From Callorhinchus milii (lineage: Eukaryota), in contig NW_024704742.1 in assembly GCF_018977255.1 (NCBI RefSeq), forward strand, positions 69,504,001 through 69,568,000: 64,000 bases of DNA. Direction: 5' to 3'. This document shows, in pieces, positions 59,554 to 62,431 of the stretch; position 1 is the stretch's first letter, and every line of letters starts with the position of its first letter. Position numbers and translations under genes: made by a program. Below the pieces are notes generated by a model. It did not search any database, had not been told where the DNA came from, and was given only the letters and a program-made list of their open reading frames with translations.

Positions 59554-60014
59554 TACATATATCAACCTTGTTCTGAGTTTCTAATGAGAAAAGACAGTAC
59601 AATAACTGACATTCTTTGTTAGAGTGATGAGATACTCTGTGTTTGAGTGATGAGGTACAGTGCGTGTTGAGAGATGAGATGTATTCTGTGTATTAGTGAT
59701 GTCTGTGCCAGCTCCCTCAAAAGCAATCCTTTCAGTCCCCATTTTCCTGCCCCTTCCCCACACCACTGAAGCTGACTGTTTTTAGATAATAATCCTTGCA
59801 TTTGATATAGCGCCTTATCCTTTCGTTGAGACATCTCAAAGCCCTTCACAAAACATACTGTAAAGTGAATGTGTATTTTTTGGGCAAAACAATAGTTGTC
59901 TCCAAGACATGATAAGGCACTAACTCAAATGGAAGGATTATTAATACAGATTCAGCTTCAACCACCACTCCCATCAGGGCATTCCATATCCTAACCACTC
60001 TGTGCGTGAATTCA

Positions 60015-60492
60015 ACTAATTAAAAACTCTGTGGCCTGCATTCTCACCCGCATTAAACTCTGTACCTCCGTTACCCCAGTCCTTGTCAAACTCCATCGGC
60101 TCCCTATCACAGAGCGGATCGATTTCAAGATCCTCACTCTTGTATTTAAATCCCTCCATGGCCTGGCACTTTCCTATCTCTCCAACCTGCTCTCTGCCTA
60201 CACTAGTACCAGCTGCCCTTGCTTGACTGGCTTCGGCTTCCTCCTTGTCCCCAGGACCATTCACCCCATCATCGGTGGTCGTGCTTTCAGCCACTACGTC
60301 CCAAAACTGCGGAACTCTCTCCCTCGCCTTGCCCACTCTCTCCCTATTTTCTGGTCGCGCTTGAAAACCTTCCTGTTCAACCATGCCTACAGTCACCTTC
60401 CCCTCCACCTAGCTCACCATCAGGCTCCACCACTGTTAAGCGCTCTGAGACGCCATCCGGCATGAAGGATACAACAAGTTGTTGATGTTGAA
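60015..60492 (+). mobile_element. L2 3' fragment nested in an antisense CR1 fragment (~59950-60750)
   Basis: ORF 60031..60465: LHRLPITERIDFKILTLVFKSLHGLALSYLSNLL..LKTFLF. The flanks are reverse-complement CR1 (GGCATTCCATATCCTAACCACTCTGTGCGTGAA and ATCACGTCACCCCTCA). Confidence 0.8.
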
Positions 60493-60813
60493 TAAAATTC
60501 TCCTAACCTCTCATTTGCTTGTTTACTAACTATCCTAAATTGATGCCCTCGAGTTACTGACTCACCGACCAGTGGAAATAACTTCTACCAATTGACTCAA
60601 TCAACACCTCTCATCATTTCAAAGACCTCAATCACGTCACCCCTCAAACTCCTTTGTTCCATTTCTTCCAGTCTCTGCTCATAGGCCAAACAACTCAACC
60701 CCGGCGTCATCCTAGTAAACCTCCTCTGCACTGCCCCTGTCTCCTTGAGGTCTTGGGATTGATATCTTGGAGCGATGGGAAACTCTCTGAGTGATCAAGT
60801 GATGGGATATGAG

Positions 60814-61625
60814 CTGGGCTGATACAAATGTGCGGGCGCACTTCCCCTGCATTTTCCATACAACGGCTCCCGCCCGCTACAACAGCCCCTTGGGTACGAA
60901 CCTTTACACACAGTGCACTGGGCCCCAGGCTCCAATCTTGCATGCGAGGCGCGGTGAATTTGGGGATGGCAGGAGCGGCGTGTACAGGAAATGGACTTCG
61001 CTGGTGAATAAACCTCGATAGGAAAAGCAGCTTTGTTCTGGCAGTGCTGGCACAGCCACTGCAGAAAGTTGAGGAGAAGCCTCTTCTTATTGGAGTAGAA
61101 TTCTTGCAGTAAGTCAACCACGCCATTGCGTCGCAAACTCTTAACTGTAAAAATGGTTAACTGTGATAAAGTGCTTGCAGTTGCCATAGACTGTGCAAGC
61201 TACATGATCGAAGCATTTTACACAATTCTGTTTCAAACAATTGTTTCCTTACGCAATACATATTACATGCATTGCCCATCTACTGAACTTGATTTTGGAA
61301 ATTTGGCCTGTTATATTGGAGGACTTAAACACAGTGGTTGCTATGGTCAAGAAAGTCTTCTGCTAAAGTCCAATGCACCAGCATCAGTACTTGGAATTTA
61401 TGGAGACGAAGAATGTAATTAAACCGCAGATGCCGGTCTTTGCTGTTCAGAGGCGTTGGTGCTCCTGGGTGAAGGCTGTTGAATATTTGTATGAGTACTT
61501 GCCTGTCTTGGCAGAATTTGTAGTTTAGCTGCAAAATGCTTCTCTCAATAGAGCCCCCACTGCATTTTTTCTGTAAAATTCAGCAAGCTGCTCCGCAATA
61601 TTTCCGCACGTTTCTATTGGCCCAG
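60814..61625 (+). mobile_element. Internally deleted hAT DNA transposon (812 bp) with TIRs, 8-bp TSD and transposase relic
   Basis: TSD GATATGAG at 60806-60813 and 61626-61633. TIRs CTGGGCTGATACAAATGTGCGG (60814-60835) and CTGGGCCAATAGAAACGTGCGG (reverse complement of 61604-61625), 18/22 identical. Confidence 0.9.
61011..61550 (+). pseudogene. hAT transposase RNase H core fragment (CGGBP1-related/DUF659-like type); two frameshifts and internal stops
   Basis: Three consecutive frames: NLDRKSSFVLAVLAQPLQKVEEKPLLIGVEFLQ*VNHAIASQ / KVLAVAIDCASYMIEAF / QLFPYAIHITCIAHLLNLILE..VAMVKKVFC*SP..PQMPVFAVQRRWCSWVKAVEYLYEYL. These supply the D..YM motif, CxxH and RW. Confidence 0.85.
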
Positions 61626-62431
61626 GATATGAGCTCTCTGTGGAATAACACCTTATAATATAATAATAATAATAATAATAATAATCCTTGCATTTGATAT
61701 GGTACCTTATCACTGAAAATATTGTAAAGTTAATTGATTCTGTATTTTGTGGGCGAAATGTGGCAGTCAATTGCGCAAACAATCATGGATTGAGTGACCA
61801 CATTTTTAAAAATTACTCTTCCCTTATTCCCATCACCTCTAAAAGAAAACCTCAGTGTTGTTTTATAAAGCTTTACGTCTGTCAATTGCTCATTCCTATT
61901 CCTTTCCCTCTCTCTCTTTGCCTTCGCAGTAGCAATCAGGACATCTGCAGTGCAGGCAAGTTCATTTCAGCGGCTTTCTTTTGACTCTTAGGTGGTGACT
62001 GTTTTATATAAAGCGACTCATCAATTTGAAGCAAATCGCAAAGCCTCCCCATTCACTACCCCTTTTATGCCTAGGGAGGAACTGTAACGAGCATTGTAGT
62101 TACAGCTTATTAAATGTCAATTTGTTATCTATCTGCTCGCACAAAGAGAAACCTCTTAAACTGCAAAATATGTATTAATCCTGCAGCTAATGCCAGATAA
62201 TTTGCCTGGGGTATTAAATAATTTAATATGCAAATCTGTGCAAAATTACCATGCTTTGTGTTCAGAATTAATACATTTTACTAATTCCAACAAAAAAAAA
62301 CACCCATAAAGTGTTTAACACATGGTTTCCTATTTCATTTCATATGTGTACACCAGAAACAAAAAAATATTTTATTTTGTTTTTGTATCTCTTAACACAG
62401 AGGTTAGTTTTGAGGACACTTTGAATGGGCA

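What the first reader, a model, noticed from the sequence alone, without database searches (positions are those of the whole stretch)
60806..61633. Complete-ended hAT transposon with CTGGG termini and a CGGBP1/DUF659-type transposase relic
Seen: a perfect 8-bp TSD (GATATGAG) and 22-bp TIRs in which three of the four mismatches are explicable by CpG decay. A transposase core is spread over three frames, so the ORF track shows only a sliver: a decayed first-Asp region near 61004-61020, AIDCASYM, LFPYAIHITCIAHLLNL and P..AVQRRWCSW. The N-terminus and the catalytic-Glu C-terminus are deleted. Established: an 8-bp TSD, CxxH and RW define hAT elements. Notable: both ends start CT rather than the usual CA/TA, and it is the only complete-ended DNA transposon I found in this retroelement-dominated window. 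Inference: a possibly uncatalogued family related to the hATs that gave rise to CGGBP-type genes, and a horizontal-transfer candidate.
Basis: partly seen in the sequence, partly recalled or inferred. Interest (0 to 1): 0.7.

Follow-up and report, generated by a model that had tools for sequence, protein, structure and literature searches.

The report
Dead hAT transposon with CT ends
This is a broken, shortened copy of an old cut-and-paste (hAT) jumping gene of a kind already known to have given rise to the human CGGBP1 gene; its only oddity is that both ends begin with CT instead of the usual CA or TA, and whether its whole family does so could not be checked.

Summary
An 812-bp element (60814-61625) has a perfect 8-bp TSD and 22-bp TIRs (18/22; best of 40 shuffles 16/22). 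It carries residues ~170-343 of a 585-aa hAT transposase in several frames. The DNA-binding N-terminus and the catalytic-Glu/dimerisation C-terminus are gone. Full-length fish relatives carry Dimer_Tnp_hAT and a sub-threshold DUF659 match, and their N-terminus best matches 'CGGBP1-like' proteins. So this is the CGGBP-type (RepeatMasker hAT-19-like) group published by Yellan et al. 2021. Contigs of this organism and a second, related one hold many similar copies, so it is a Ds-like dead derivative of an old multi-copy family. Horizontal transfer is not supported: the nearest named relative is a sturgeon protein (70% over 60 aa), and a species-tree arrangement is not rejected (p-AU 0.26). The CT start breaks the hAT YARNG rule at position 2. 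One fish relative's left end aligns in register and starts CA, so CT is not group-wide. Two independent A-to-T changes are unlikely, so CT was probably present at insertion. No other copy's ends of this family, and neither Repbase nor Dfam, could be examined. Ordinary relic with one small open oddity.

The parts
60806..60813 (+). Left 8-bp target-site duplication GATATGAG
60814..60835 (+). Left 22-bp TIR, starts CTGGG; TG at arm positions 7-8 and 16-17 fits CpG decay
   Evidence: in register with a fish relative's left end, 13/22
60836..60996 (+). GC-rich left subterminal/5' non-coding remnant (59% GC over 60814-60996); the zf-BED/Hermes-type DNA-binding N-terminus (aa ~1-165 of the relative) is missing between here and the catalytic core
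   Evidence: composition; no N-terminal match
60997..61017 (+). Decayed first-Asp motif: F-A-G-E-stop-T-S against L-D-E-T-T-D; Asp position reads Gly, with a frameshift (by eye)
   Evidence: profile match starts at the next D, 61017
61017..61148 (+). Transposase piece 1 (aa ~174-218 of P0152), one internal stop
   Evidence: i-E 2e-7
61150..61230 (+). Transposase piece 2 with the second catalytic Asp (AIDCASYM = VTDSASYM, D232 of P0152)
61241..61540 (+). Transposase piece 3 with CxxH (CIAH) and RW (RRWCSW); stops at 61364 and 61526; ends near aa 343. The catalytic Glu (E549 of P0152) and the dimerisation domain are deleted
   Evidence: (i-E 2e-39)
61541..61603 (-). Right subterminal remnant; a 17-bp motif at the inner TIR edge matches the CCGCGG-rich subterminal motif of a fish relative 15/17
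61604..61625 (-). Right 22-bp TIR, reads CTGGG inward; the last ~26-30 bases are shared with many other contigs in organisms A and B
61626..61633 (+). Right 8-bp target-site duplication GATATGAG

Best explanation
A dead, twice internally deleted (Ds-like) copy of an old multi-copy hAT DNA transposon of the CGGBP-type (hAT-19-like) group. Shown: TIRs, 8-bp TSD and the central part of the transposase. Inferred from hAT biology: an autonomous relative's transposase bound the ends through subterminal CGG-rich motifs, cut the element out and inserted it with an 8-bp stagger. The deletions arose by interrupted gap repair or after insertion, and the copy then decayed neutrally (CpG loss, stops, frameshifts). 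The CT start was probably carried by the parent element, a subfamily variant of the CA start seen in a fish relative; that step is inferred, not shown.
For: TSD/TIR geometry beyond shuffles. 309 relatives at E<=0.001. Of 27 relatives scanned, 15 pass the Pfam cut-off for Dimer_Tnp_hAT. [quoted passage not shown] Many 80-95% similar contigs in both organisms, some internally deleted, and most copies lack the stop at 61364. Subterminal motif shared with a fish relative. Yellan 2021: CGGBP-like hAT domains bind motifs in their own subterminal regions (PMC8097297, main text read).
Against: The relic itself has no Pfam hAT or DUF659 match; membership rests on relatives. Its CGGBP-like part is deleted, so the CGGBP link is indirect. 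DUF659 in P0152 is below the curated cut-off (26.9 vs 34.7). No empty site and no full-length copy from this genome were seen. CT violates the YARNG terminal motif.
Confidence: 0.9

Rival explanations
1. Same element, but the family has ordinary CA...TG ends and this copy acquired T at position 2 of both arms (two substitutions, or one substitution copied between arms).
For: A fish relative starts CAGGC in exact register. All 36 TIRs listed for anole hATs start CA or TA (PMC3014272 Table 1). The copy is old and decayed. The base pair after the right TSD is also CT, so local copying cannot be excluded.
Against: Hand estimate: listed copies differ by about 9-14% pairwise (table 8), so at most ~7% per lineage, and about a fifth of changes at T sites are T/A. 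That gives ~0.015 per arm and ~2e-4 for both. The arms keep four uncorrected mismatches, so they were not homogenised late.
Confidence: 0.15
2. The family entered this lineage by horizontal transfer from a bony fish or an aquatic invertebrate.
For: The relic groups with a sturgeon protein (81/77 support) rather than outside all bony fish. Yellan 2021 suggests horizontal movement for CGGBP-type hATs in general. The closest clade of relatives is fish-rich.
Against: Identity is only 70% over 60 aa to sturgeon and 43-51% to teleost proteins. The AU test does not reject sturgeon plus teleosts as a clade (p 0.258; group named after the first tree was seen). Indexed holders were only organisms A and B, and B shares the host's flanking repeats.
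Confidence: 0.2
3. A domesticated or functional CGGBP-like gene or regulatory element.
For: CGGBP genes arose repeatedly from this hAT group (PMC8097297), and exapted hAT19 fragments are known in amniotes (PMC9004415, passages).
Against: The DNA-binding part that is domesticated in CGGBPs is exactly what is deleted here. The remainder has at least four stops and three frameshifts.
Confidence: 0.02

Closest known systems
CGGBP-like hAT transposons, mainly the RepeatMasker hAT-19 subclass (hAT-19_Crp, hAT-13_LCh, hAT-1_RPr, hAT-4_LMi; Yellan, Yang & Hughes 2021, PMC8097297)
   Same: Its full-length relatives have a CGGBP1-like N-terminus and CGG-rich subterminal motifs. One relative 49% identical to the relic is annotated 'CGG triplet repeat-binding 1' in Labeo rohita (automatic names in that cluster are unreliable).
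   Different: This copy lacks the CGGBP-like part. The paper's Table S1 lists no cartilaginous-fish hAT-19 subfamily in the 2018 library (supplement read). The paper gives no terminal sequences, so CT cannot be compared.
Fish hAT transposases XP_059199577.1 (Centropristis striata, P0152) and MGH0160327.1 (Acipenser sinensis, P0008)
   Same: Same clade (100/99 support for a 10-row clade); 43% over 168 aa and 70% over 60 aa respectively; TIR of a 92%-identical P0152 relative aligns 13/22 in register.
   Different: That relative starts CAGGC, not CTGGG; DNA identity to the relic is only about 61%.
Hermes / Ac-Ds / hobo (hAT superfamily)
   Same: 8-bp TSD, short TIR, DDE core with CxxH and RW; deleted non-autonomous copy like Ds (recalled; PMC3014272 passages for the deletion mechanism).
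   Different: Position 2 of the TIR is T, not the A of YARNG (PMC3014272 section 8).

Membership tests
hAT superfamily | 8-bp target-site duplication | tested here: met
   GATATGAG on both sides
hAT superfamily | Short TIRs (10-25 bp, PMC3942097 passage) | tested here: met
   22 bp, 18/22
hAT superfamily | Terminal motif YARNG (PMC3014272) | tested here: not met
   CTGGG: A at position 2 replaced by T in both arms. This is a consensus, not an absolute rule: hobo_AC TAGGC departs at position 5.
hAT superfamily | DDE transposase with CxxH and RW, homologous to Hermes | tested here: met
   Second D, CIAH and RW present; first D decayed; E deleted. Relative P0152 matches Hermes, E 6e-5.
hAT superfamily | C-terminal dimerisation domain PF05699 | tested here: inconclusive
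   Deleted in the relic; present above cut-off in P0152 and in 15 of 27 relatives scanned.
CGGBP-type / hAT-19 subclass | N-terminal zf-BED plus Hermes DBD recognised as CGGBP1-like | tested here: inconclusive
   Deleted in the relic; the relative's N-terminus best matches a CGGBP1-like cluster, 0.96. The Panther/InterPro model was not available.
CGGBP-type / hAT-19 subclass | Transposase clusters with Repbase hAT-19 entries | not testable with these tools
   No Repbase or Dfam sequences held; the hAT tree supplement of PMC12730594 gave no hit for hAT-19 names.
Non-autonomous (Ds-like) derivative family | Same deletion junctions in several copies | tested here: inconclusive
   Other deletion forms are seen in organism B (for example a skip from 61036 to 61600); no second copy with this exact structure was shown.
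Horizontally transferred TE | DNA identity across distant taxa above that of host genes, and a tree at odds with the species tree | tested here: not met
   No near-identical holder outside organisms A and B; p-AU 0.258. Sampling is thin.

The most novel reading that the evidence does not exclude
A cartilaginous-fish subfamily of CGGBP-type hATs transposed with CT...AG ends, breaking the nearly invariant A at position 2 of hAT termini, while its bony-fish relatives kept CA. Comparing the two transposases would then show which residues read the transposon tip.
Probability: 0.4. Interest if true: 0.42.

Novelty: new member of a known kind. Interest (0 to 1): 0.22.

Why it matters
As it stands it adds one more dead copy to a published hAT group and extends that group to a lineage poor in DNA transposons. 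If sister copies also start CT, it would be a natural exception to the hAT terminal rule. Paired with CA-starting fish relatives, that would allow a test of how hAT transposases recognise base 2, and it would show that termini-based classifiers (Dfam signatures, PMC7805219 passages) can miss such MITEs.

Tried and rejected
No genome is held for this window, so no copy survey or empty-site check was possible. Pfam on the three relic pieces: no hAT family. Word-index protein search with the longest piece: 0 of 37 candidates. Viral contigs: no relative by protein (6 candidates, 0 confirmed) or by TIR pattern. Metagenome scan: 1 of 182 candidates, L001, which holds no element end. GTDB scan: 1 of 35, L002, a eukaryote-type contig in a MAG. 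A second pattern hit, L004, lies in bacterial coding DNA with no transposase and was dropped as chance. The relative's left end was found in 1 of 401 genomes, itself. No RNA holder was listed. Laid contigs could not show the terminal two bases of other copies: no difference or loose end was listed there, and 438 differences and 1060 loose ends were not shown. Organism B has no cover at 60760-60879, which proves nothing. Shifted TSD frames give no symmetric ends. The left end does not fold better than shuffles (z 0.25). Two weak profile hits elsewhere in the window (i-E 0.3 and 0.48) were treated as chance. Paper searches for hAT-19 termini found nothing on CT ends; most subscription papers and Repbase Reports are outside the library. 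Fig S2 and S3 of PMC8097297 are pictures and gave no sequences.

Full report
Observation. The element spans 60814-61625 (812 bp, 46% GC) between two copies of GATATGAG. Its arms are 22 bp and 18/22 complementary; three mismatches are at CpG positions and one is a transversion. In 40 dinucleotide shuffles of the window, the best arm pair abutting an 8-bp repeat was 16/22. In the real window such scans are swamped by inverted SINE copies. After I dropped palindromic repeats and pairs with inverted outer flanks, 4 pairs with an 8-bp repeat remained, and only this one encloses a transposase.

Protein. The longest piece, read through its internal stop, found 309 relatives at E<=0.001 among 1.84 billion representatives. 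I scanned 27 of the 150 listed: 15 pass the Pfam cut-off for the hAT dimerisation domain, and DUF659 is matched in 17, above cut-off in 4. A full-length relative, XP_059199577.1 (P0152, 585 aa, black sea bass), aligns to three frames of the element at aa 180-340 and matches Hermes transposase, E 6e-5. A profile of 54 long relatives places the relic at positions 160-336 of 574. The second Asp, CxxH and RW are kept, the first Asp reads Gly (by eye), and the N-terminal DNA-binding part and the C-terminal third with the catalytic Glu are deleted.

CGGBP link. It is indirect, because the relevant part is missing. The N-terminus of P0152 best matches a CGGBP1-like cluster (0.96). Yellan et al. 2021 (PMC8097297; parts 1-2 of 3 of the text and the supplement text read) report that the CGGBP1 model picks 29 of 824 RepeatMasker hATs, mainly hAT-19, and that these domains bind motifs found in their own subterminal regions. 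Frith 2022 (PMC9004415, passages) reports hAT19 fossils in amniotes. The kind is therefore known.

Family. Contigs from four of the 24 listed runs were laid on 60480-61660 at 80% likeness. Single-copy contigs have depth about 7-10; the transposase region sums to roughly 90-340 in organism A and is also covered in organism B; the bin 61600-61639 sums to 1157-1763. Depth is no copy number, but it fits many ends sharing the last 26-30 bases. Listed copies differ from the window by about 9-14%, and most lack the stop at 61364. The left junction is spanned in two samples of organism A. Organism B shares the flanking host repeats and so is probably a relative (inference). Five earlier AI notes describe other dead CGGBP-type hAT copies in this genome, one 1316 bases beyond the window, and one names the host as elephant shark; I did not check those copies or the species.

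Termini. hAT ends are described as YARNG, and all 36 TIRs listed in Table 1 of PMC3014272 (37 rows, section 8 part 1 read) start CA or TA. A contig 92% identical to P0152 (L002) has, 214 bp upstream of the first matched codon, CAGGCCCGCACGGAATCTGCGG. It aligns 13/22 with both window arms at offset 0 (at most 8 at other offsets) and is the only such site among 9500 positions; a 17-bp subterminal motif matches the window's right end 15/17. This supports the boundary and shows that CT is not a mark of the whole group; it is one end of one rearranged copy, without a TSD. A hand estimate puts two independent A-to-T changes near 2e-4, so the parent probably had CT ends. I saw no other end of this family, and my paper searches found nothing on CT-ended hATs or on hAT-19 termini; Repbase and Dfam were not available.

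Transfer. In a quick tree of 61 rows (the relic plus the 60 best BLAST matches among the stored proteins) and a careful tree of 15 rows, the relic pairs weakly with a sturgeon protein, sister to a teleost clade. Holding sturgeon and the teleost clade together costs 1.07 log units (p-AU 0.258); two rows in that clade are unnamed and assumed teleost, and the sturgeon row is short. Vertical descent is compatible with the data; transfer is neither shown nor excluded.

Verdict. A real, dead, internally deleted hAT of a published group. Mechanism shown: ends, TSD, transposase core. Inferred: mobilisation in trans, gap-repair deletion, CT ends inherited from the parent. Interest is low; the CT start is the one point worth a genome-wide check.

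Noticed in passing
L002 (contig CAMRBZ010000228.1) 1-2560: A eukaryote-type contig in a bacterial MAG carries a fish-type hAT with an internal inversion (aa 120-341 on the opposite strand) and a gap of about 1.17 kb at codon 75 that looks like an intron; likely host contamination of the bin.
   Followed up: partly
window 60805-60815 and 61625-61635: The direct repeat extends to 11 bp (GGATATGAGCT): the target continues CT, the same two bases that start the element. About 1 in 64 by chance; unexplained.
   Followed up: partly
window 61655-61810 and about 40 other places: A SINE-like repeat with a (TAA)n tail sits 20 bp right of the element and recurs throughout the window; inverted pairs of it mimic TIR/TSD structures.
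   Followed up: partly
window 60010-60462 and 60480-60760: LINE-like (L2/CR1-type by recalled motifs) 3' fragments flank the element on the left; highly repeated in both organisms.
   Followed up: no
protein P0048 (2311 aa, unnamed): A SET/AWS-domain protein ends in a near-complete transposase of this group: a possible SETMAR-like fusion or a gene-prediction join.
   Followed up: no
cluster of P0185 (Labeo rohita): Near-identical transposase copies carry unrelated automatic names (E2F6, LGR6, GTF2IRD2, MHC class II), so names in this family are unreliable.
   Followed up: partly
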